DNA of 64,000 bases from contig JACPGU010000003.1 in assembly GCA_016188915.1 (NCBI GenBank), positions 73,045 to 137,044 on the forward strand, given 5' to 3'. This stretch comes from Candidatus Microgenomates bacterium (lineage in GTDB: Bacteria > Patescibacteriota > JACPGU01). A model generated the notes under the pieces. The model saw only the letters and a list, made by a program, of their open reading frames with translations, was not told the origin of the DNA and made no database searches. Each line of letters opens with the position of its first letter. Position 1 is the first letter of the stretch. The position numbers were made by a program, and so were the translations under genes. Shown here in pieces: positions 3,553 to 63,016 of this stretch.

Positions 3553-4383
3553 ATGTTTAGGAAAACGTGGGATTTTTTGAAGAATAATTTTCCAGTTTGG
3601 CTAAAGAACCTCTTGGTTTTTTCCATACTGGCGATTATCATGATTGGAATCTTCAGGTTCGGCAATGCCTTGGCCGTGTTTTTGGTCTTTCGATCAATAG
3701 CCAAAAGCATTGCTTTCAATTCGGGATTACCGGATTGGATCGCCTACTTGATGGCAATTCCTCCAGTAGCGATGCTGGCTTACGGGATGAAGATGTCTTT
3801 TTCTTTTTCGGCAAAAAAACGAAGAATAGGCTACGCCCTCTTGTGTGGTTTTTTCTTTGTCCCCATGATGATAATGGGGTTTATCAGCAAAGACCATGTC
3901 TATTATCCCGATGGCCGACCGGCGAAATGTTACGCCGCTACACTAACGGGATATGAGTATGTCTCTTGCGAATGGAAGGTTCACCCTGTTTTTGGGACGG
4001 CAGTAAAGCCTGTTGTTCCAGATATCATTCATGCTATATGGGCGCAGGAACGCCAAGTGCCGGCGGTGGAGAGAATCGTTCCAACGAAAGACACTCGTTT
4101 TTATACGACTGATGGACAACCCCTCATCTGGTTTTATCAAAGACCGGATGGCAGGATAGAACTTTTCGGTCGACCCGGCTATCATCCGCAATTTGGCAAT
4201 GTTCAATTGCAGCCGGCTACCAGTGAAATTGTTTTGAAAATTTTTGAGCATTTGGAAAAAGAAGAGAGGAATATGGTCATTTTCTCCAATGACTCAAAAA
4301 AGCAAGACGAAATCTCATCTTCCAGCACAAGGGAGCTACAAAAGCTTCGCGATCTTTTCGTCACGATTGGGGGTGATAACTAA
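3553..4383 (+). CDS. Polytopic membrane protein, hypothetical (276 aa)
   Basis: Several hydrophobic segments in the first ~120 aa, soluble C-terminal half. No motif recognised. Confidence 0.5.
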   Translation: MFRKTWDFLKNNFPVWLKNLLVFSILAIIMIGIFRFGNALAVFLVFRSIAKSIAFNSGLPDWIAYLMAIPPVAMLAYGMKMSFSFSAKKRRIGYALLCGFFFVPMMIMGFISKDHVYYPDGRPAKCYAATLTGYEYVSCEWKVHPVFGTAVKPVVPDIIHAIWAQERQVPAVERIVPTKDTRFYTTDGQPLIWFYQRPDGRIELFGRPGYHPQFGNVQLQPATSEIVLKIFEHLEKEERNMVIFSNDSKKQDEISSSSTRELQKLRDLFVTIGGDN

Positions 4384-25777: not shown

Positions 25778-27892
25778 TTATGGCTTAAATACTTGGAGAC
25801 CGATAGAGCTATCCAGGATAAAGAGTCTGGGATTGTCCGAGATTGGCTCAAAATCTACACTCATCGGATTGGTAAGATTGCCATCTGGGACAGAGGCGAT
25901 CTCCCAATCTAGAATTATTGATGCTCCGTCGTCAAAAAGCCCAACTACACGATCTCGTTCGTTGTCAGCGTAGACAACTTGTGTGCCGTTGGATAATTTT
26001 CGGACGGTTATGCTGGTGCAGTCAGCACTAATATTATAGCTTCTTTGCCAATTGCCTGCACGATTGAACTTTTTGATTGCGCGGTTGCCTCGATCTAGAA
26101 CCCAGACACTATCTTCAGTAACGCCTACTCCGATTGGTTCTTTGAGCTGAGCGTCATTGGTGCCAAAGGTGCCGATAATCTCGCCGGTGGTTTTACCGTC
26201 AGATTCGTAGAAAACAATTATGCGACCGTTTTTTGAATCAGCGGCAAAGATTTTGCCGCTTTCTCCAGTGCAATCTATGCCTGCCGGATCGTTTAACCCG
26301 ACTGATATGCCCATCGTCATTTTCCAGGTCATGGTTCTGTAGTCTACCTTGACTTTAATTATTCGATCCTTGTTTTGATCGGTAATATAAAGATGGTTGT
26401 TACAGAAGCCAAGATTATTGGGGTTAGTGATAGTCTCTGGCAAATCGACGATAGCAGAAGAATCCAGACTGACCCAATCATTAAGATTGGAACCGCCGGT
26501 AGTTCGTAAATGCATCCCATTGCCATCTAAAATCGCTAGTTGCTCATCGAACTCATAGACTAGATTAGTGCCGGAGACGGAGACTTTGTTGACGAAGGTC
26601 GGACGAATGTTACTACCGCCCATATTCTCTCCTCCCCCTCCGCTTGTCACCACCGTAATCGTGGTCGTGCAGGTATTGCTTCCGCCGGTGCCGGTGACAG
26701 TGCCGGTCGCCGTGTAGGTGCCGGTCGCCGTGTAGGTCTTACTCGTGCTTCCGCTCGAACTTGAGCTGGAGTACGAATTCGACCCGTCGCCGAAATTGAT
26801 GGAAATCCCCGTGAACCCCGAGCCGCTCACCGACCAGCTGATGCTGGTGGATGAATTGACATTGGGGTTGCTGGGACTGGCGGACAAACTGCAGGTTGGC
26901 GCGGACGGATTGGTGGTCGTTCCATAATAGATGGAGGTGGAGACCTTGGTCTGCGAGTTGTTCGGATCTTCCGAACTCCAGCCCGCGTCATCCACGCACC
27001 AAAGCTTGACAGTGTTATCGCCAGAGGCAAGGGTTATTTCTCGCTCCCAGGGGATCCATGTGTCCTGCCCGATCTTGTCAGGGTCGTCGTAATCCACCAT
27101 TTTCGCCGTATCTGAACCCACCTGCACCCACAGGTTGCAATCAGGGCGTTTGCTCCCCCCAATTATCGGGGTGGAATCGGTGGTTGGCGACTCCACCGTA
27201 TCAATGATAGGCGGAGCCGGCCTGGTGGTGTCCAACATCGTGTCAAAAACCGTCCCACCACTGGGTCTGTTGGACGAATCGCGACAGACAAAAATGTGAT
27301 GGTTCGGTCCTTCCACTAGGGTCAAAGAATAGGTGGACTGGGTGGACCCGTCGCGATTGACGATAATCTCCTGGCCGTCCATCTCCAGCGTCGGGCAATT
27401 GCTCCCCGTTTTGAAGGTGACGGTCATGGGCGAAGTAGTGACTGTGGCCGGAATGGTGCCGACAAATCCAGGCGCCGAAGGACCTCCTTCAGGGCGATCG
27501 TTGACGATGACGGTGGCCGTATAAGGGCCGGCGGCGTTTGTGCCGTCCGTCAAAGTCACCGAGATGCCGAAGGTGCCGGTCTGCGAGTAGAGGTGGTAAT
27601 TGCTGCAAGTCACCCCTTCGTTTTTCGCGCCACCGCCCCAGCTGAAATTGCAGAACAAAGAAGCACCTTGTCTGCCCCCTGACGGTGTGCCGGAGCAACG
27701 GACGGAGTCGTTCTGGTAAATCGTGGTCGGTTCACAGCCCCAATTGAGGAGTTTCAAGGGCTTCTCTTCCGTGGGGGGCGGAGCCGAAGTGCCTCCTCCT
27801 CCGCCACAGCCGGTCAGAAACAGGGAAAAAACAATCGTCAAAATGCCCGCGACCCGGGCAGGGTTCCAACCACAAAGGTTGAATTTTCGCAT
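25778..27892 (-). CDS. Lipoprotein with PKD-like domain(s), Gly/Ser/Thr-rich linker and C-terminal NHL-repeat beta-propeller
   Basis: Lipobox LFLTGC. TYTATGTYTATGTVTGTGG linker encoded by an 18-bp tandem repeat at ~26702-26737. NHL-like repeats (GKIFAADSKNGRIIVF; VWVLDRGNRAIKKF). Confidence 0.6.
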   Translation of the reverse strand: MRKFNLCGWNPARVAGILTIVFSLFLTGCGGGGGTSAPPPTEEKPLKLLNWGCEPTTIYQNDSVRCSGTPSGGRQGASLFCNFSWGGGAKNEGVTCSNYHLYSQTGTFGISVTLTDGTNAAGPYTATVIVNDRPEGGPSAPGFVGTIPATVTTSPMTVTFKTGSNCPTLEMDGQEIIVNRDGSTQSTYSLTLVEGPNHHIFVCRDSSNRPSGGTVFDTMLDTTRPAPPIIDTVESPTTDSTPIIGGSKRPDCNLWVQVGSDTAKMVDYDDPDKIGQDTWIPWEREITLASGDNTVKLWCVDDAGWSSEDPNNSQTKVSTSIYYGTTTNPSAPTCSLSASPSNPNVNSSTSISWSVSGSGFTGISINFGDGSNSYSSSSSSGSTSKTYTATGTYTATGTVTGTGGSNTCTTTITVVTSGGGGENMGGSNIRPTFVNKVSVSGTNLVYEFDEQLAILDGNGMHLRTTGGSNLNDWVSLDSSAIVDLPETITNPNNLGFCNNHLYITDQNKDRIIKVKVDYRTMTWKMTMGISVGLNDPAGIDCTGESGKIFAADSKNGRIIVFYESDGKTTGEIIGTFGTNDAQLKEPIGVGVTEDSVWVLDRGNRAIKKFNRAGNWQRSYNISADCTSITVRKLSNGTQVVYADNERDRVVGLFDDGASIILDWEIASVPDGNLTNPMSVDFEPISDNPRLFILDSSIGLQVFKP

Positions 27893-28144
27893 TACAAGCC
27901 TCCCGCCGGCAAGCCGGCATTTTTTTGGTTTTTCTCGCTTATAAAAGGGCGAGCGAGAGGGGCAGAAGCCTTCTCTCCTTTTCGTGGCTTAATTTAGCAT
28001 TTTTTTATAATTTAGTCAATGATTTTTGTCTGCTACTGACACATCCGACCAAACAATGGAACATCGCCAAGAAAAATATTGTCTTTCGCTACTTTTTCTT
28101 TGGCGCCAGGAGTGCTATAATCAGGTTAAGACTAAAAAATACAA

Positions 28145-57458: not shown

Positions 57459-58157
57459 ATGCAACGGCAAATAGAACAAAAACAAAAAAATGCCGATTAT
57501 GGCATATTTCATATCTATAATCGTGGGACAGAAAAAAGAGATATTTTTTTAGATATGTACGATTTTAAAAGATTCTATGATGGTATACGGGAATTTAATA
57601 CTACTATACCGGTTGATCTACGTGAAAGAATACGGGAAAAAAAGAAACGCGAAGGTGACACCTTCGCAAATAGTGGGCTAGCAAGAGGAGAAAGGCTGGT
57701 AGATGTGTTGTGTTTTTGTTTAATGCCCAATCATTATCATCTTATTTTAAAGCCCCTCATAAAGAATGGTGTGACTGTATTTATGCGTAAATTAGCCACT
57801 GGCTATTCATCTTATTTCAATCGTAGATATGAAAGAAGTGGTAGACTATTCCAAAATGTTTTTAAAAATAAGGAGATAGATTCTGACGAATCATTTTTGT
57901 ATGTCTCTGCCTATCAACACATCAATCCTATAGCTGCTAAGTTGGCGAAAAAACCATCAGATTGGCTATGGTCTAGCTATAAACACTTTATCGGGGTAAG
58001 GAATGATGATATACTGCTAGGGGTAGAAAAAATATTGAGCGTTACATCACTTGAGTATAAAAAATATGTTGAGGGATTAATAGATGAAAATTGGTTTAGC
58101 AACCATAAAAAAAATTTACTTTTAGAGACAGACGATGATTACTACTTGCGAAGGTGA
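57459..58157 (+). CDS. IS200/IS605-family Y1 (HuH) transposase, REP-associated type (RAYT)
   Basis: YGIFHIYNRGTEKRDIF N-terminal strand. HuH motif LMPNHYHLIL. C-terminal Tyr-containing helix SAYQHINP. An internal REP copy encodes an inserted loop KKREGDTFANSG. Confidence 0.65.
   Translation: MQRQIEQKQKNADYGIFHIYNRGTEKRDIFLDMYDFKRFYDGIREFNTTIPVDLRERIREKKKREGDTFANSGLARGERLVDVLCFCLMPNHYHLILKPLIKNGVTVFMRKLATGYSSYFNRRYERSGRLFQNVFKNKEIDSDESFLYVSAYQHINPIAAKLAKKPSDWLWSSYKHFIGVRNDDILLGVEKILSVTSLEYKKYVEGLIDENWFSNHKKNLLLETDDDYYLRR
57646..57670. repeat. REP-like palindrome copy 3 (shorter arms gcgaaggtg/caccttcgc) inside the RAYT ORF
   Basis: aacgcgaaggtg-a-caccttcgcaaatag. Confidence 0.7.
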
Positions 58158-58175
58158 CACCTTCGCAAGTAATAA
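58139..58175. repeat. REP-like palindrome copy 4, overlapping the RAYT stop codon and lying just upstream of alaS
   Basis: ttactacttgcgaaggtg-a-caccttcgcaagtaataa. Confidence 0.8.
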
Positions 58176-58188
58176 AATGGGTATTTTT

Positions 58189-60228
58189 ATGACATCGAAA
58201 GAATTGCGACAGAAATTTTTGGATTTTTTTGAAAAGAAGGGTCATATAATTATCCCTTCAGCTTCTTTGATTCCGGAAAATGATCCGACGACGCTCTTTA
58301 CTAGCGCCGGCATGCAGCCAATGATGCCGTATTTGCTTGGCGCCGAGCATCCGGGCGGTAATAAAGTAGCGGACTCACAGAAATGTTTTCGCACGCAAGA
58401 CATCGACGAGGTTGGAGATCAGCGCCATACGACTTTTTTTGAGATGCTTGGTAATTGGTCATTTGGTGAATATTTTAAGCGTGAGCAGATACAGTGGATG
58501 TCGGAATTTCTTTTCGATGAATTGATGCTTGACCCAAAGCGGGTGTATGTGACGGTCTATCGTGGCAATACCGAGATAAATATCGGAAAAGACGAAGAGT
58601 CGGCTGAGTTGTGGCAAAAAACATTTGAGGAGCGAGGTGTCGATGCCGAGATCGCTGATATGGCTGAAGAGGATGGCATGAGTGGTGCCCGTATTTTTTA
58701 TTATGGTGATAAAAAAAATTGGTGGTCTCGAGCAGGTGTGCCACACGATATGCCACTCGGTGAACCAGGTGGACCCGACAGCGAGATGTTTTGGGATTTC
58801 GGTGAGGATCTCGAGCTTCATGAAAGATCGCCATACAAAGACCAAGTCTGTCATGTGAACTGTGATTGCGGAAGGTTTTCCGAGATTGGCAACAATGTCT
58901 TTATGCAGTATGTAAAGGTTGGTACGGGTTTTGAGCCACTATCAAAGAAAAACGTGGACTTTGGCGGGGGGCTGGAGCGCATGACGGCTGCTACGAACGA
59001 CTTGCCGGACATCTTCATGATCGATGTCTTTGATGCTGCGCGGGAAAAGCTTGAGGATATAAGCGACAAAAAGTATGGAGAGAACGAGGAAGAAACGCGC
59101 GCCTTTCGGGTGATCTTGGATCACATTAGGGCCGCGATGTTTTTGGCAGCAGATGGTGCGGTGCCGTCCAACAAAGACCAGGGCTACTTCACTCGTCGCC
59201 TCATCCGTCGTGCGATCCGATATGGGCATCAACTGGGTATTTCCGATAGTTTTTGTGGTGATATCGTAGACGCATTTATCACTACTTACGGCGAAGCATA
59301 TCCAGATATTGGCACAAATAGGGACACGATTGTTGAAGAAGAAGAAAAGTTTAATCGCACTATAGTTGAAGGACTCAAGGTGGCACACAAGATGTTTGCC
59401 GAGAAGACACCGATAGAAAAATCCAAATTCCATAAATTCATGTTGCTTCATGACCACACTCAGATTTTGAAAGAATTATGGAAAAAGAAAAGAGGAGGGG
59501 AGGATTATTCTATTCAGAAAGCGAACATAACCCAAGGGGAGATCGACAATGCGATAATAACCGGAGAAGAAGGGTTTTTGCTTTATCAATCATATGGTTT
59601 CCCGATGGAGATGATTATTGAGTTGGCGACAGAGGCACGACTCTTTTTTCATCGCGGTGAATTTCGTCGTGAACTCGAAAAGCATCAAAACTTATCTCGT
59701 AGTGCTTCAGCGGGGAAATTCAAAGGCGGGTTGGCGGATAATTCCGAGGAAACGACGAAGCTTCATACTGCCACGCACCTTCTCCTCAAATCTTTGCGGA
59801 CGGTTTTGGGCGACGAAAATATCAATCAAAAAGGCAGTAATATCACGGCTGAAAGATTGCGGTTTGATTTCAATTTTCCCCGCAAACTAGAACCGGATGA
59901 GCTGAAAAAAATAGAAGAAATGGTTAATGAGCAAATTAAACGCGATCTCAAGGTAGAGCGGCTGGAAATGTCGTATGATGAAGCAAAAAAAATGGGGGCG
60001 ATAGGCGTTTTTGAAAATAAATATGGAGAAAATGTTTCAGTTTATAAAATGGGGGGTGATCCCTCGACTCCCGATGGTCGCTCGGGACAAGCTTTCAGCT
60101 TGGAGCTTTGTGGCGGTCCACACGTGGAGCATACGGGACAGCTCGGGAGCTTCAAAATAATCAAAGAAGAGGCCTCTTCGGCCGGGGTTAGGAGGATTAA
60201 AGGGACACTAGGAGGGGGTAAGAAATAA
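58189..60228 (+). CDS. alaS: Alanine--tRNA ligase, short form (catalytic + tRNA-binding + editing domains; lacks C-Ala domain)
   Basis: MTSKELRQKFLDFFEKKGH. FTSAGMQPM. VADSQKCFRTQD. Editing-domain HTATHLLLKSLR. 680 aa. Alternative ATG at 58177. Confidence 0.8.
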   Translation: MTSKELRQKFLDFFEKKGHIIIPSASLIPENDPTTLFTSAGMQPMMPYLLGAEHPGGNKVADSQKCFRTQDIDEVGDQRHTTFFEMLGNWSFGEYFKREQIQWMSEFLFDELMLDPKRVYVTVYRGNTEINIGKDEESAELWQKTFEERGVDAEIADMAEEDGMSGARIFYYGDKKNWWSRAGVPHDMPLGEPGGPDSEMFWDFGEDLELHERSPYKDQVCHVNCDCGRFSEIGNNVFMQYVKVGTGFEPLSKKNVDFGGGLERMTAATNDLPDIFMIDVFDAAREKLEDISDKKYGENEEETRAFRVILDHIRAAMFLAADGAVPSNKDQGYFTRRLIRRAIRYGHQLGISDSFCGDIVDAFITTYGEAYPDIGTNRDTIVEEEEKFNRTIVEGLKVAHKMFAEKTPIEKSKFHKFMLLHDHTQILKELWKKKRGGEDYSIQKANITQGEIDNAIITGEEGFLLYQSYGFPMEMIIELATEARLFFHRGEFRRELEKHQNLSRSASAGKFKGGLADNSEETTKLHTATHLLLKSLRTVLGDENINQKGSNITAERLRFDFNFPRKLEPDELKKIEEMVNEQIKRDLKVERLEMSYDEAKKMGAIGVFENKYGENVSVYKMGGDPSTPDGRSGQAFSLELCGGPHVEHTGQLGSFKIIKEEASSAGVRRIKGTLGGGKK

Positions 60229-60270
60229 AAAAGGACGCTGGTGCAAAATGCGCGCAAGCGTCCTAATGGA

Positions 60271-60297
60271 CGGCCTACTTGCGTAGGCCGGTTTTCC
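60271..60297 (+). terminator. Terminator hairpin after alaS
   Basis: cggcctac-ttgc-gtaggccg followed by gttttcc. Confidence 0.55.
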
Positions 60298-60301
60298 CTG
60301 T

Positions 60302-61552
60302 TCAGGTAATGGGTATCATGCCGATTCCGAGGAAGCGAATCCTGGGGATATTGTTTTCGGTACCCGATCCGTGGACTGAGTAGTTCGGATCGTCGCACCC
60401 ACCCCTGGTGGCCATGATTTCTTCGAGCAACCCTTTTGTTGCAAGACCCAGCTCACTGCTGTGTCCTTCCGGTGACGCTTGGTTGGCATTCACGATCGCG
60501 GTTACATCGAGGTCTTGAACATTACCTGCTTTCGCGGCATCGACGATGGCAATCTTCGTCTCGCCGGAGAGAGCGCCTTCGTATTCTTTCACGCATGACG
60601 CCAGTTTCACGGCATCTTCCTGGCTCTGAATGCCCCATCTTCCGACGAACGCTCGCAGAAAAGCATTTCGGGACCTGCCCGTCCGAAACTTTTTGACGAA
60701 TTTCACCGCAGGATCGATAAGACCGATTCTCTCGAGGACAAGGGTATTGAGATAATCCTCGGCAGCCGCCACGCGCCCGACTTCTGCTTCTTCGGCGGCC
60801 AAAAGATATGCAATGTTTTCCAGCTCCTCGACTGGCGTATCCGTATTGCAGCGCACGATGCGCGCCTCCGCCGCACCGAAGATGGCGGTCAGTGCCTCGA
60901 TGCCGCCAAATTCCGTTGTTTGCACGAGCTTGGCGAGTTTGACCAGTTCTTCCGTCAGAAGTTCTTCATTCCATTTATGGGCTTGTAGGAAAATTCTGAT
61001 GGTGCGATGAATCCCCGTTCTGGTCAGGAAAGCGTTCGCCAGCATTATCGCGTCTTCAGTGGTGGTCAGGAGACCACTCGCTCGTGCGAGTATTGCCTCC
61101 TCGAGGATGTCGGACCCACGCCCATCACAGAAAGGATCGCGCACTTGTTCCGCCAGTTCGCAGAGATCGGCGAGCGTCAAGCCGGGTGGCAGATCGAGAT
61201 TGTTCTTGAATGCTTCTTTGATAACCGCAATCGTTTCGTTGACCCTATCTTTGCTGTCCTCTTCGTCCACCATTCCGATCAGATCGCAGTAGTTCTCGAG
61301 ATCCAATGCTACATTCGAGTTCCTGGTCACTCTTCGGAGCCATTCGTTTCTTACTGCCGGCGACCGGAGGGCTTGAACAAGTTGCTTTGTATCGTTCTTT
61401 CTGTGCCAGACAGCAAACGCCCTCTCGATGATGGCACTTTCGTGTGCCGCCCGATGCTCGTCGTCCTTGAGCTGGTTCGCCAATTCGCACAACTCATGAA
61501 TCGTTGACGATCCCCGAATCTTCTCCCCAAACGTTTTCGGCCAAAAGCTCAT
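60302..61552 (-). CDS. Hypothetical alpha-helical protein (416 aa) encoded by a GC-rich (~55%) compositionally foreign gene
   Basis: Long ORF, ATG at 61552 (MSFWPKTFGEK...). Base composition clearly differs from the ~38% GC of surrounding genes. No recognised motif. Confidence 0.5.
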   Translation of the reverse strand: MSFWPKTFGEKIRGSSTIHELCELANQLKDDEHRAAHESAIIERAFAVWHRKNDTKQLVQALRSPAVRNEWLRRVTRNSNVALDLENYCDLIGMVDEEDSKDRVNETIAVIKEAFKNNLDLPPGLTLADLCELAEQVRDPFCDGRGSDILEEAILARASGLLTTTEDAIMLANAFLTRTGIHRTIRIFLQAHKWNEELLTEELVKLAKLVQTTEFGGIEALTAIFGAAEARIVRCNTDTPVEELENIAYLLAAEEAEVGRVAAAEDYLNTLVLERIGLIDPAVKFVKKFRTGRSRNAFLRAFVGRWGIQSQEDAVKLASCVKEYEGALSGETKIAIVDAAKAGNVQDLDVTAIVNANQASPEGHSSELGLATKGLLEEIMATRGGCDDPNYSVHGSGTENNIPRIRFLGIGMIPIT

Positions 61553-61759
61553 TTCTTTCGTACTCCTCGGTAGATATTTTGTCGCAACGCGACGGACTCG
61601 CAAGAGCGAGTATTCGACCTGGCATTTTGTTAAACGACAATCTGTCGCCTATCTTACTGCTTTTTTGTACTAATGTCAATATATCGCTCAAATAAGCTGT
61701 TTCAAGGTAGCGCTGGGTTTGTTCTTCCGTTCTCTCGCTGTTGCGGATATAATATATCC

Positions 61760-63016
61760 ATGAGTTTTCTTGATCGCCTCTTGGGCTACAATGAGCTAAA
61801 TCACCACGCTATTGCGCTGGATGTGGGAACGGAGTTTGTCAAAACTTTGGTTTTTCGAGTAGATCAGGGCAAAGCCTATATTTTGGGTGCCTCGAGAACA
61901 CGCCAGGAGCTCAAAGATATGCAGGGGGGAGCGATTACTGATATTTCCGGAGTAATCAAAAATTGTCTCAAATCCCTAGAAGAAGCCTGCGATATGGCCA
62001 AAATTACTCCAGATAAAGTAATCATGGGCATTGCCGGTGAATTGGTCAAAGGAGCAACCACAACTATTTCCTATACGAGAAAAGAGCCGGCTAAAAAAAT
62101 TGACGCCAAAGAATTAGACAATATTATAAAAAAAGTCCAAGAAAAAGCCTTCGGTCAAATTCATCACCAAATCGCCTGGGAAACGGGTAAGGACGATATT
62201 GACATTCATCTAGTTAACGCGGCGATTGCCGATGTCAAAATAGACCGCCATCCGGTAAGTAGTCCTATCGGGTTTACGGGTAAAAATATCGTTGTTTCAG
62301 TTTATAATGCCTTTTCGCCAATGATTTATCTGGGAGCTTTGGAGTCGGTGGCCGAAAACCTAGGGCTAAATCTCATCGGTATCGCGGCTGAACCTTATGC
62401 CGTGGCTAAATCCATGGGATTGTCTCAGGGTCAGGATTTTTCCGCTATTTTCATGGACATTGGTGGCGGGACGACGGATATCGCGGTTGTTCGTGGTGGC
62501 GGTTTGGAGGGGACTAAGATTTTTTCTATCGGCGGGAGAGCTTTTACCAAAAGAATAGCCAGAGAGATGAATACTAATTTTGCTAAAGCGGAAGAAATGA
62601 AACTGGCTTACGCTAATAATGACTTGGCCGAAAAAGAAAAGCAGGCAGTAGGCGAGATACTGCAGGAAGATGTTTCTATTTGGCTGGAGGGTGTTAAAAT
62701 GGTCTTAAAAGAATTTGGCGATGAGCAGATGCTGCCTTCTCGAATTTTACTCTGTGGCGGCGGTTCTCTTTTGCCTGAAATAAAAAAATCTTTAGAAAAA
62801 TCAGATTGGGCTAAAGATTTAGCCTTCGCTAAAAAAGCCAATATCACTTTTATCAAACCCAAAGATGTGGAAAATGTGATAGATCAAACGAAATTATTGG
62901 ATAGCCCATCGGATATTACGGCTATGGCTTTGGCCAATCTTGCGATAGAATTGGTAGAGGGATTGAGCCCGATGGCAGAAATGTTGCGCAAAACAGCGGA
63001 AGGCATTACACATTAG
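61760..63016 (+). CDS. ftsA: Cell division protein FtsA (actin-like ATPase)
   Basis: IALDVGTEFVKTLVF phosphate-1. IMGIAGELVKG. MDIGGGTTDIAVV phosphate-2. ILLCGGGS adenosine motif. Confidence 0.8.
   Translation: MSFLDRLLGYNELNHHAIALDVGTEFVKTLVFRVDQGKAYILGASRTRQELKDMQGGAITDISGVIKNCLKSLEEACDMAKITPDKVIMGIAGELVKGATTTISYTRKEPAKKIDAKELDNIIKKVQEKAFGQIHHQIAWETGKDDIDIHLVNAAIADVKIDRHPVSSPIGFTGKNIVVSVYNAFSPMIYLGALESVAENLGLNLIGIAAEPYAVAKSMGLSQGQDFSAIFMDIGGGTTDIAVVRGGGLEGTKIFSIGGRAFTKRIAREMNTNFAKAEEMKLAYANNDLAEKEKQAVGEILQEDVSIWLEGVKMVLKEFGDEQMLPSRILLCGGGSLLPEIKKSLEKSDWAKDLAFAKKANITFIKPKDVENVIDQTKLLDSPSDITAMALANLAIELVEGLSPMAEMLRKTAEGITH

What the first reader, a model, noticed from the sequence alone, without database searches (positions are those of the whole stretch)
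60302..61603. Compositionally foreign (GC ~55%) 416-aa gene inserted antisense between alaS and ftsA
The segment 60300-61600 is visibly GC-rich, with codons dominated by G/C third positions, in a ~38% GC genome. It encodes an all-helical protein with no recognisable motif and is transcribed against both neighbours. It sits in a housekeeping context (alaS, ftsA). This suggests recent horizontal acquisition from a high-GC donor.
Basis: seen in the sequence. Interest (0 to 1): 0.55.

Follow-up and report, generated by a model that had tools for sequence, protein, structure and literature searches.

The report
Persistently GC-rich orphan gene family
A real gene for a helical-repeat protein of unknown function sits in a swap-prone slot between two housekeeping genes, and its GC-richness is a built-in trait of its rare gene family in AT-rich candidate-phyla bacteria, not the fingerprint of a recent high-GC donor.

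Summary
Window 60302-61552 (-) is a 416-aa ORF with 53.9% GC and GC3 0.61, in a 41.2% GC window (not 38%). It is antisense to alaS and ftsA, all-helical, and matches no known family.

It is a genuine monocistronic gene with its own promoter, Shine-Dalgarno site and terminator. It encodes a three-module alpha-helical repeat protein (AlphaFold pLDDT 82). Its family is very rare: 14 clusters among 1.84 billion representative proteins.

alaS-ftsA synteny is conserved in three relatives, but each carries different, unrelated genes in the gap. The gene is therefore an accessory occupant of a variable slot.

The reading "recent import from a high-GC donor" is not supported:
- In 9 of 11 genomes with DNA, family members are also 51-59% GC islands (GC3 0.56-0.74) inside 33-44% GC Patescibacteria-type contigs.
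- The GC step coincides with the coding sequence, and the promoters and leaders are AT-rich.
- No homologue lies in a GC-rich context.
- A syntenic ortholog pair with saturated synonymous divergence has kept the GC-richness.
- Three tandem paralogs flank a 35% GC native gene.

The composition looks like a gene-specific equilibrium. Its cause is unknown (selection on the coding sequence or biased conversion). Protein function is unknown, probably a fast-evolving binding scaffold.

The parts
60302..61552 (-). CDS of a 416-aa helical-repeat protein (ATG 61552, stop TGA 60304-60302). GC 53.9%, GC3 0.61.
   Evidence: ORF list and sequence. Codon-position GC. 13 distant homologues. The N-terminus aligns with P0002. 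AlphaFold model with pLDDT 82.
61193..61504 (-). Module 1 (about aa 17-120): a degenerate copy of the ~105-aa six-helix repeat.
   Evidence: Internal repeat 17-46 vs 126-155 (score 36; shuffles give 25.5 +/- 4.1, maximum 41, so the signal is weak). Alignment A1. Helix pattern in the model.
60848..61177 (-). Module 2 (about aa 126-235): the best-conserved copy. It carries the family motifs LADLCELAEQVRDPFCDGRGS, TRTGIHRTI and FGGIEALTAIF.
   Evidence: Alignments A1 and A2. Most homologues match this part of the query.
60518..60835 (-). Module 3 (about aa 240-345).
   Evidence: Alignment A1, including the invariant L244 and nearly invariant A248 and L317. Model.
60305..60475 (-). C-terminal tail (aa 360-416). 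It is predicted disordered apart from one helix (368-385) and is variable across the family.
   Evidence: pLDDT below 50 for residues 360-416. The tails do not align across the family.
61563..61568 (-). Shine-Dalgarno-like GAGGAG, 10 nt upstream of the ATG.
   Evidence: Read from the sequence. Homologues have GGAGG in the same place.
61651..61679 (-). Sigma-70-type promoter-like site, TTGACA-17 nt-TAAGAT. It implies a leader of roughly 90 nt and overlaps the 5' end of the ftsA ORF on the other strand.
   Evidence: Promoter scan, 10 of 12 matches. Similar TTGACA promoters with long leaders lie upstream of homologues. This is a consensus match only and has not been shown to function.
60221..60264 (-). 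Intrinsic terminator of the gene. The hairpin AGGACGCU...AGCGUCCU (60232-60264) is followed by UUUUUUAUUU on the minus strand, and the U-tract overlaps the last codons of alaS.
   Evidence: Inverted repeat I7. The 3' region folds at -34.2 kcal/mol with z = -4.58.
60271..60290 (+). Hairpin CGGCCUAC-UUGC-GUAGGCCG followed by GUUUU: a terminator-like site for the convergent alaS.
   Evidence: Terminator scan and fold.
58135..60228 (+). Left flank: alaS (alanyl-tRNA synthetase). The true start is probably near 58189.
   Evidence: Pfam tRNA-synt_2c at 9e-107 and tRNA_SAD. Alignment to relatives begins at residue 19.
61673..63016 (+). Right flank: ftsA.
   Evidence: Pfam FtsA. 65-75% identical orthologues lie next to alaS in L012, L016 and L017.

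Best explanation
**What it is (shown).** The segment is a stand-alone, monocistronic accessory gene. It encodes a 416-aa alpha-helical repeat protein with no signal peptide, so it is probably cytoplasmic. The protein has three ~105-aa six-helix modules and a disordered tail.

**Family (shown).** It belongs to a very rare, uncharacterised family. So far the family has been seen only in AT-rich Patescibacteria/CPR-type genomes.

**Location (shown and inferred).** It sits in a slot between alaS and ftsA that holds different, unrelated genes in each related genome (shown). So it was gained or swapped in within this lineage (inferred).

**Composition (shown and inferred).** The GC-richness is not a leftover donor signature. 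It is a property of the family's coding sequence wherever the family occurs. It is confined to the CDS, sits next to AT-rich host-type promoters and leaders, and has been retained through vertical descent past synonymous saturation (shown). The coding sequence is therefore held at a gene-specific compositional equilibrium, with GC3 about 0.6 against about 0.25-0.45 for neighbours. Some force must be opposing the genome's AT pressure (inferred). The nature of that force is unknown. The candidates are selection on the coding nucleic acid or codons, and GC-biased conversion linked to frequent recombination of a fast-evolving gene.

**Function (inferred, low confidence).** The protein is most likely a non-enzymatic binding or scaffold protein involved in some interaction or conflict. 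It evolves fast, varies in copy number and has a patchy distribution.
For: **A real gene**
- It shows coding periodicity.
- It has 13 homologues with E-values from 2.6e-45 to 1.6e-4.
- The confident AlphaFold model has pLDDT 82 and pTM 0.73, with residues 1-359 mostly above 90.
- It has a promoter-like site, a Shine-Dalgarno site and a terminator.

**A variable slot**
- alaS->ftsA is conserved in L012, L016 and L017.
- The cargo differs in each: a 190-aa plus a 501-aa ORF, a single 172-aa ORF, and a 158-aa plus a 199-aa ORF. None is homologous to the target or to the others.

**GC-richness as a family trait**
- Gene GC against flank GC:
  - window 0.539 vs 0.41
  - P0002 0.534 vs 0.405
  - P0005 0.591 vs 0.403
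  - P0006 0.558 vs 0.386
  - P0017 0.560 vs 0.376
  - P0011 0.528 vs 0.407
  - P0012 0.509 vs 0.408
  - P0013 0.510 vs 0.412
  - P0008 0.538 vs 0.408
.
- In most of these loci the family gene is the most GC-rich segment present.

**Confined to the CDS**
- The upstream 150 nt are 0.28-0.44 GC and carry TTGACA promoters.
- The first 150 nt of the CDS already reach 0.42-0.58.
- GC drops again after the terminator.

**Retained in situ**
- P0008 and P0012 both lie upstream of rpsT, with homologous terminators and rpsT promoters.
- They share 45% amino-acid identity and have pS 0.79 (saturated). Both are still GC-rich, beside a 41-42% GC rpsT.
- In L008/L009, three tandem paralogs (0.54-0.57 GC, dS 0.36-0.68) are interleaved with a native ABC-ATPase gene at 0.354 GC and GC3 0.26.
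- Polarised third-position changes on two paralog branches are 13 AT->GC and 22 GC->AT. Free decay to the host GC3 would give about 1:4.85 (P = 0.005). The counts are not different from 1:1 (P = 0.18).

**Shared sequence signature**
- The target's RSCU correlates 0.57-0.62 with P0002, P0005 and P0006.
- Its GC-normalised dinucleotide profile is closer to the pooled homologues (delta* 0.073) than to its own genome (0.150).

**Hosts**
- GenBank names the window's organism Candidatus Microgenomates.
- The GluRS of L004 has its best named hits in Patescibacteria, at 52% identity.

**Fast evolution**
- dN/dS is 0.6-0.78 between the paralogs.
Against: - The sample is small: 11 genomes and one syntenic ortholog pair.
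- The window gene itself has no ortholog or close relative, so its own history is inferred from the family.
- Two members are not GC-rich (P0014 at 0.405 vs 0.423; P0010 at 0.457 vs 0.412). This also fits a picture of old, ameliorated imports.
- The paralog substitution counts are small, are inferred by parsimony, and do show some GC->AT excess.
- An unsampled GC-rich reservoir cannot be formally excluded.
- No mechanism for gene-specific GC maintenance is demonstrated.
- In the window the 3' boundary is blurred, because the alaS 3' end and the terminators are also about 50% GC.
- The host taxonomy of most homologue contigs is inferred from gene context only.
- The function has no direct evidence.
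Confidence: 0.6

Rival explanations
1. The gene was recently acquired by horizontal transfer from a high-GC donor and has not yet ameliorated. By extension, each GC-rich family member would be an independent recent import from an unsampled GC-rich reservoir. P0010 and P0014 would be older, ameliorated arrivals.
For: - The composition and codon usage are atypical.
- The gene is absent from the orthologous slot in relatives.
- Different family members sit in different contexts, and several are antisense to their neighbours.
- GC across members forms a gradient from 0.40 to 0.59.
- The amino-acid composition is GARP-rich, like proteins from GC-rich genomes.
Against: - None of the 11 homologues with readable DNA lies in a GC-rich context, even after an exhaustive search of 1.84 billion representatives.
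- The GC-rich tract ends at the CDS. The promoters and leaders are host-like and AT-rich.
- There are no integrase genes, tRNA genes, direct repeats or inverted repeats at the borders.
- Syntenic orthologs with saturated dS keep the GC-richness.
- Tandem paralogs are interleaved with a native low-GC gene.
- The substitution spectrum departs from neutral decay.
Confidence: 0.22
2. The GC-richness comes from GC-biased gene conversion. The gene recombines unusually often, with incoming alleles or with paralogs, and biased mismatch repair raises its GC. On this view it is a neutral by-product and not selected.
For: - A link between recombination and gene GC3 has been reported across bacteria (PMC4450053).
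- Tandem paralogs exist in one genome.
- The gene is fast-evolving and patchily distributed.
- Both G- and C-ending codons are enriched, and so is first-position GC, as a general GC pressure would produce.
Against: - In L008/L009 the homology between paralogs extends into the promoter and leader, yet those regions stay at 0.28-0.34 GC.
- The window holds a single copy with no internal DNA repeats.
- No recombination was measured here.
Confidence: 0.12
3. The GC-rich segment reflects an RNA-level or overlapping feature. That could be a structured non-coding RNA, an antisense RNA, or a second overlapping reading frame.
For: - GC-rich islands in AT-rich genomes are often RNA genes (general knowledge).
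- Four of nine family mRNAs fold more stably than synonymous shuffles, with z below -2.3.
- The +2 sense frame tends to be slightly more open than in shuffles.
Against: - There is no Rfam match, even at E <= 1.
- The window mRNA gives z = -0.68.
- The open off-frame stretches lie at different positions in different members and encode Arg-rich junk.
- Protein homology and a confident fold explain the ORF.
Confidence: 0.03
4. It is an artefact: a chimeric contig, or contaminating DNA assembled into a Microgenomates contig.
For: The window comes from a metagenome-assembled genome, and read-level data were not available.
Against: - Both flanks belong to the same syntenic alaS-ftsA neighbourhood seen in three relatives.
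- The gene has AT-rich, host-type expression signals.
- The same gene-sized GC step recurs in independent assemblies from different samples whose record names carry different assembler-style formats.
Confidence: 0.01
5. The GC-rich codons reflect translational selection in a very highly expressed gene.
For: C-ending codons (ATC, ACC, CTC) are enriched.
Against: - G-ending codons and first-position GC are also raised, and Leu shifts from TTR to CTN.
- Neighbouring genes expected to be highly expressed are not GC-rich: rpsT beside P0008 is 0.43 and rpoB beside P0011 is about 0.40.
Confidence: 0.02

Closest known systems
Classical compositionally atypical horizontally acquired genes or genomic islands
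   Same: The gene has atypical GC and codon usage, is absent from the same position in relatives, lies in a variable slot between conserved housekeeping genes, and is transcribed against its neighbours.
   Different: No donor lineage is visible. The atypical composition is confined to the CDS and is shared by distant homologues that all sit in AT-rich genomes. It persists in syntenic orthologs past synonymous saturation. There are no mobility genes or repeats at the borders.
Borrelia vls antigenic-variation locus (GC-rich and GC-skewed cassettes in a ~28% GC genome; recalled from my own knowledge, Zhang et al. 1997 and Norris 2014, not verified here)
   Same: Both are protein-coding loci whose high GC is conserved across species in AT-rich genomes despite sequence divergence. 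Both are fast-evolving. Tandem copies occur in at least one genome here.
   Different: This protein has no signal peptide or lipobox. There is no array of promoterless silent cassettes: the L008/L009 paralogs are full-length genes with their own promoters. GC skew is only modest. The window holds a single copy.
Hypervariable PTD-repeat gene of a Gracilibacterium (CPR) with GC-shifted codon use (PMC6851277)
   Same: It is a CPR gene whose synonymous codon use is shifted toward GC-ending codons relative to a very AT-rich genome (GAC:GAT 6.2:6.7 against 0.83:4.79), in a gene thought to be under pressure to diversify.
   Different: That gene encodes an extracellular beta/coil repeat protein with short nucleotide repeats. 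The present family is helical, has no DNA repeats, and is GC-rich over the whole CDS. The two have no sequence relationship.
Recombination-associated GC3 heterogeneity in bacteria (gBGC hypothesis, Lassalle et al. 2015, PMC4450053)
   Same: It offers a way for native genes within one genome to differ in GC3 without any foreign origin.
   Different: The effect here is large (+15 to +35 GC3 points), limited to a single gene, and stops at the CDS ends. Recombination was not measured here.
TPR, Sel1, HEAT and designed helical-repeat (alpha-solenoid) proteins
   Same: The protein is built from repeated helices. These proteins are the best Foldseek matches.
   Different: There are no HMM matches. 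TM-scores are only 0.1-0.35. The repeat unit is about 105 aa with six helices and has its own motifs (D..DG.GS, TG.HR, FGG.EA), unlike the 34-47-aa units of those families.

Membership tests
Recent horizontal acquisition from a high-GC donor | Base composition and codon usage deviate from the resident genome. | tested here: met
   GC is 0.539 against 0.412. GC3 is 0.61. RSCU correlates at r = -0.21 with the host genes.
Recent horizontal acquisition from a high-GC donor | The gene is absent from the orthologous position in related genomes. | tested here: met
   The alaS-ftsA interval of L012, L016 and L017 holds other, unrelated ORFs.
Recent horizontal acquisition from a high-GC donor | Homologues exist in a plausible donor lineage of matching composition. 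| tested here: not met
   The exhaustive search found 13 homologues. All 10 with readable DNA lie in 33-44% GC contigs.
Recent horizontal acquisition from a high-GC donor | The foreign composition spans the inserted DNA, including its non-coding parts, or mobility signatures mark the borders. | tested here: not met
   The upstream 150 nt are 0.28-0.44 GC with host-type promoters. There is no tRNA gene, integrase gene or flanking repeat.
Recent horizontal acquisition from a high-GC donor | The compositional signal decays with residence time (amelioration). | tested here: not met
   The syntenic orthologs P0008 and P0012 have pS 0.79 yet GC3 of 0.61 and 0.57. The paralog substitution spectrum is 13:22, not 1:4.85. 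The two GC-poor members leave this partly open.
TPR/Sel1/HEAT-type helical repeat families | A significant match to the family's sequence profile. | tested here: not met
   No Pfam or NCBIfam family passes threshold for any of the 14 members.
TPR/Sel1/HEAT-type helical repeat families | Solenoid fold that superposes on known members. | tested here: inconclusive
Structured non-coding RNA gene | A match to a covariance model, or structure beyond composition, with no coding signal. | tested here: not met
   There is no Rfam hit at gathering score or at E <= 1. The mRNA folding z-score is -0.68. Codon periodicity and protein homologues are clear.
vls-like gene-conversion antigenic variation locus | Locally elevated GC, conserved across species, in an AT-rich genome. 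| tested here: met
   9 of 11 genomes show it.
vls-like gene-conversion antigenic variation locus | An array of silent partial cassettes next to an expression site, and a surface lipoprotein product. | tested here: not met
   The window holds a single copy with no repeats. The protein has no signal peptide or lipobox (sequence). The L008/L009 paralogs are full genes with their own promoters.
Phage-borne or defence-system gene | A match to PHROG or PADLOC profiles, or presence on viral contigs. | tested here: not met
   There is no PHROG or PADLOC match at E below 0.01. No relatives were found in IMG/VR for two family queries.
Nif11 domain | A Pfam PF07862 match. | tested here: not met
   One of 14 members matches, at E = 0.068 only. 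The resemblance of A..AK..G.EI to Nif11 is my own impression.

The most novel reading that the evidence does not exclude
The family's coding sequence is held GC-rich by natural selection acting on the nucleic acid itself, not by biased conversion or repeated import. Possible reasons include the mRNA having to survive AU-directed decay under particular conditions. A far less likely variant (a few percent at most) is that the promoter-CDS-terminator cassette is used in a GC-richer partner cell of these episymbionts. Either way it would be a rare, clean case of gene-specific selection on base composition in bacteria.
Probability: 0.25. Interest if true: 0.75.

Novelty: new variant of a known kind. 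Interest (0 to 1): 0.55.

Why it matters
Atypical GC is routinely read as a mark of recent horizontal transfer. Here the same signal is a conserved, CDS-limited trait of a gene family living in AT-rich genomes, and it survives complete synonymous turnover. If that holds, two things follow.

First, it is a caution for composition-based HGT calls in candidate-phyla genomes.

Second, it is a compact natural test bed for the open question of what pushes bacterial GC upward against the universal AT mutational bias, selection or GC-biased conversion. One gene sits at GC3 of about 0.6 beside neighbours at 0.25-0.45, repeated across many genomes.

It also defines a new, structurally confident helical-repeat protein family in Patescibacteria that has no annotation.

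Tried and rejected
- **Rfam.** Nothing was found on the window or the region at relaxed threshold except a tRNA-Leu at 80-167.
- **Protein libraries.** Pfam, NCBIfam, PHROGs, PADLOC and PDB-sequence profiles gave nothing for any family member.
- **Word-indexed homology search.** It found only the protein itself, and only 2 proteins with the alignment as query, so it is not useful for this family.
- **Single-sequence AlphaFold.** The model was poor (pLDDT 61) and was superseded by the 14-sequence model.
- **Pattern-based locus search.** The family alignments were too divergent for it.
- **Viral contigs.** No relatives were found.
- **Mobile-element borders.** No meaningful direct or inverted repeats were found.
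- **Organism names for host contigs.** Cluster look-up returned no names.
- **mRNA structure against synonymous shuffles.** There is no signal in the window gene.
- **Overlapping ORF.** There is no conserved frame or position.
- **TpA avoidance at codon boundaries.** It is present (mean z = -2.3) but equally strong in the non-GC-rich member P0014, so it is generic.
- **Expression-linked codon bias.** Rejected because rpsT and rpoB beside homologues are not GC-rich.
- **5' leader of the window gene.** It is not significantly structured (z = -0.84).
- **Literature on vls GC content.** It could not be retrieved from the held library.
Full report
**1. The observation**

The segment is GC-rich as described. 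GC is 53.7% over 60302-61603 and 53.9% over the CDS. The window mean is 41.2%, not 38%, and 1.3-kb windows give 0.412 +/- 0.044. Codon-position GC is 0.59/0.41/0.61. The other 37 long ORFs have GC3 of 0.23-0.52, with one exception: ORF 25778-27892 at 0.60. Codon usage is anticorrelated with the rest of the window (r = -0.21). Every other gene gives r >= 0.17.

The ORF on the minus strand is open from TTG 61603 (433 aa). The N-terminal 23 residues align with the closest homologue, so this start is better supported than GenBank's 393-aa call for HYV44_03330 of a Candidatus Microgenomates MAG. The neighbours are alaS (58135-60228, +) and ftsA (61673-63016, +).

**2. It is a real, self-contained gene**

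Upstream there is a TTGACA-17-TAAGAT promoter-like site (61679-61651), a leader of about 90 nt, and GAGGAG 10 nt before the ATG. Downstream, two stable hairpins sit between the convergent genes. The second is followed by a U-run on the minus strand (z = -4.58). No Rfam family matches, even at E <= 1. No direct or inverted repeats, tRNA gene or integrase gene mark the borders.

**3. The protein**

No Pfam, NCBIfam, PHROG, PADLOC or PDB-sequence match exists for it or for any relative. An exhaustive HMMER scan of 1.84 billion representative proteins found only 13 relatives. They are 23-37% identical, with E-values from 2.6e-45 to 1.6e-4. All come from metagenomes or MAGs.

The alignment shows a repeated module of about 105 aa. 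Its motifs are ..sLeeLc.iA..v.D...DG.gS..E..Ii.aAL, F.t.TG.HR.i.aY and fGG.EA..AI..Aa. The window protein has three modules, of which the middle one is the best conserved, followed by a variable tail.

With the 14-sequence alignment AlphaFold gives a confident all-helical repeat model: pLDDT 82, pTM 0.73, residues 1-359 mostly above 90, and the tail disordered. Foldseek finds only designed helical repeats, TPR-like proteins and giant-virus repeat proteins, with TM-scores of 0.1-0.35. The protein has no signal peptide. I infer a cytoplasmic, non-enzymatic binding or scaffold protein. This is inference only.

**4. The slot**

FtsA-based searches recovered three related genomes (FtsA 65-75% identical, AlaRS 45-57%) in which alaS is still followed by ftsA. 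The interval content differs in each:
- L012: a 190-aa ORF plus a 501-aa P-loop ORF on the opposite strand.
- L016: one 172-aa Lys/Glu-rich ORF.
- L017: ORFs of 158 and 199 aa.

None of these is homologous to the target or to each other. The alaS-ftsA interval is therefore a variable slot, and the target is a lineage-specific occupant.

**5. The key result: GC-richness is a family trait**

I fetched the DNA around ten further family members.

| Member | Locus | Gene GC | Flank GC | Gene GC3 |
|---|---|---|---|---|
| P0002 | L001 | 0.534 | 0.405 | 0.58 |
| P0005 | L004 | 0.591 | 0.403 | 0.74 |
| P0006 | L005 | 0.558 | 0.386 | 0.71 |
| P0017 | L008 | 0.560 | 0.376 | 0.62 |
| P0011 | L010 | 0.528 | 0.407 | 0.56 |
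| P0012 | L014 | 0.509 | 0.408 | 0.57 |
| P0013 | L015 | 0.510 | 0.412 | 0.63 |
| P0008 | L020 | 0.538 | 0.408 | 0.61 |
| P0010 | L007 | 0.457 | 0.412 | 0.44 |
| P0014 | L003 | 0.405 | 0.423 | 0.39 |

Counting the window, 9 of 11 genomes show the anomaly. In most of these loci the family gene is the most GC-rich segment present.

The contexts are all different: near thrS, gltX/recO, SWIB, topA, an ABC ATPase, map/rpoB and rpsT. They look like Patescibacteria. For L004 the GluRS has its best named hits in Patescibacteria, at 52% identity. No homologue lies in a GC-rich contig. None was found on viral contigs.

**6. The GC step is confined to the CDS**

In every GC-rich member the 150 nt upstream are 0.28-0.44 GC. 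They contain TTGACA-type promoters, leaders of about 100-130 nt and a GGAGG site. The first 150 nt of the CDS are already at 0.42-0.58. After the terminator GC falls to about 0.4. DNA imported from a GC-rich genome would not be expected to end so regularly at the start and stop codons.

**7. Evidence that the composition is maintained in place**

(a) P0012 (L014) and P0008 (L020) are syntenic orthologs. Both lie upstream of rpsT, with recognisably homologous terminators and rpsT promoter regions. They share 45% amino-acid identity. Synonymous differences are saturated (pS 0.79; rpsT gives pS 0.85). Both still have GC3 of 0.57-0.61 beside an rpsT of 41-42% GC.

(b) In one strain (L008/L009) three tandem paralogs are each 0.54-0.57 GC, with dS of 0.36-0.68 and dN/dS of 0.6-0.78. 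They are interleaved with a native ABC-ATPase gene at 0.354 GC and GC3 0.26.

(c) Polarised third-position changes on two paralog branches are 13 AT->GC and 22 GC->AT. Neutral decay toward the host GC3 predicts about 1:4.85 (binomial P = 0.005). The counts are not different from 1:1 (P = 0.18). The numbers are small and parsimony-based.

(d) The target's codon usage and GC-normalised dinucleotide profile resemble those of its distant homologues more than those of its own genome. RSCU correlates at r = 0.57-0.62, and delta* is 0.073 against 0.150.

The two GC-poor members show that the protein fold does not itself demand GC-rich coding.

**8. What could hold it there**

The following were tested and not supported:
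- A structured RNA. The window mRNA gives z = -0.68 against synonymous shuffles, and the family trend is only modest.
- An overlapping ORF.
- Expression-linked codon bias. rpsT and rpoB next to homologues are not GC-rich, and both G- and C-ending codons plus first positions are shifted.
- TpA avoidance. It is generic.

Two candidates remain. One is selection on the coding nucleic acid or its codons. The other is GC-biased gene conversion tied to frequent recombination of a fast-evolving gene, as proposed for bacteria in general (PMC4450053). One observation counts against conversion. The AT-rich promoter and leader regions are also homologous between the L008/L009 paralogs, yet they remain AT-rich. 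I cannot decide between these two with the present tools.

**9. Comparison with known systems**

The gene behaves like a classical accessory gene in a variable slot, but it fails three of the five defining tests for a recent import from a high-GC donor: donor homologues, foreign flanks or mobility marks, and amelioration.

The nearest analogies for a conserved, gene-specific GC excess in an AT-rich genome are two. The first is the Borrelia vls locus (my recollection, not verified here). The second is the GC-shifted codon use of a hypervariable gene in a Gracilibacterium (PMC6851277). Neither is related in sequence or architecture.

The protein family itself is new to the libraries searched.

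**10. Verdict**

The best-supported reading (about 0.6) is a Patescibacteria-restricted helical-repeat gene family whose coding sequence sits at its own GC-rich equilibrium. The main rival (about 0.2) is repeated recent import from an unsampled GC-rich reservoir. Interest is moderate. The gene's function is unknown, but the compositional behaviour is unusual and testable.

Noticed in passing
window 25778-27892 (-): This is a second GC-rich gene transcribed against its neighbours. It encodes a 704-aa lipoprotein-like protein (lipobox LTGC) with PKD and NHL repeats, at GC 0.527 and GC3 0.60. The GC-richness is mosaic: 54-60% over 26500-27900 (N-terminal Gly/Ser/Thr/Pro-rich part plus PKD), but 43-47% over the C-terminal NHL part. 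The flanks are 27-35% GC.
   Followed up: partly
window 57459-58157 (+): A 232-aa ORF with an IS200-like Y1 transposase domain (Pfam Y1_Tnp, 6.4e-06) lies directly upstream of alaS and overlaps its ORF start. It is 2.1 kb from the target, and no link to the target was found.
   Followed up: no
L008 167-4526 and L009 3-2109 (same strain): Three tandem paralogs of the family (58% aa and 75% nt identity between the two complete ones) each have their own near-identical AT-rich promoter/leader and terminator. They are interleaved with a low-GC gene for a 492-aa protein with two ABC_tran domains. The GC profile alternates 0.56 / 0.35 / 0.57 / 0.33.
   Followed up: yes
L001 about 2183-2195 and L005 about 4354-4366 (leaders of P0002 and P0006): The two leaders share the 13-mer ACTACCTTAATAA at -97 and -90 from the start codon. 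L014 and L020 share a similar leader, CAGTACCTAAAAAA[CT]AGAAAAA(A)GGAGGA. In L014 it precedes the family gene, but in L020 it precedes a neighbouring 109-aa CxxC (zinc-ribbon-like) ORF. This may be a shared regulatory leader and is unexplained.
   Followed up: partly
window 61484-61552 (-): GenBank's annotated product (393 aa, HYV44_03330) starts at an internal TTG. Homology of residues 5-23 with P0002 supports the upstream ATG at 61552 and a 416-aa product.
   Followed up: yes
window 61673-61760 (+) and L012 8001-8036: The first ~29 codons of the long ftsA ORF are partly conserved at protein level in the relative L012. The tblastn match starts before L012's first start codon, and the peptide GYN[IT]SM is shared. 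FtsA in this lineage may therefore carry an N-terminal extension, and the target's promoter would then lie inside the ftsA coding region.
   Followed up: no
L012 6399-7904 (-): In the relative, the same alaS-ftsA slot holds a 501-aa ORF on the opposite strand. It has a P-loop (GPPHSGKST) but no Pfam match, and a 190-aa ORF sits beside it. This is another uncharacterised cargo in the same slot.
   Followed up: partly
proteins P0004, P0008, P0010, P0011, P0012, P0013 (C-termini): A subgroup of the family carries, after the last module, one or more CxxC motifs, a Gly/Leu/Met-rich stretch, and a conserved C-terminal domain ending ...LPPE(M/L)..(V/I)(I/L)EKYA. P0013 has this region duplicated. The window protein lacks it.
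   Followed up: no
family CDSs, sense +2 frame: The +2 sense frame is slightly more open than in synonymous shuffles across members (individual p of 0.01-0.46; my rough Fisher combination gives about 0.002). The open stretches are not positionally conserved. This is probably a codon-context effect.
   Followed up: partly
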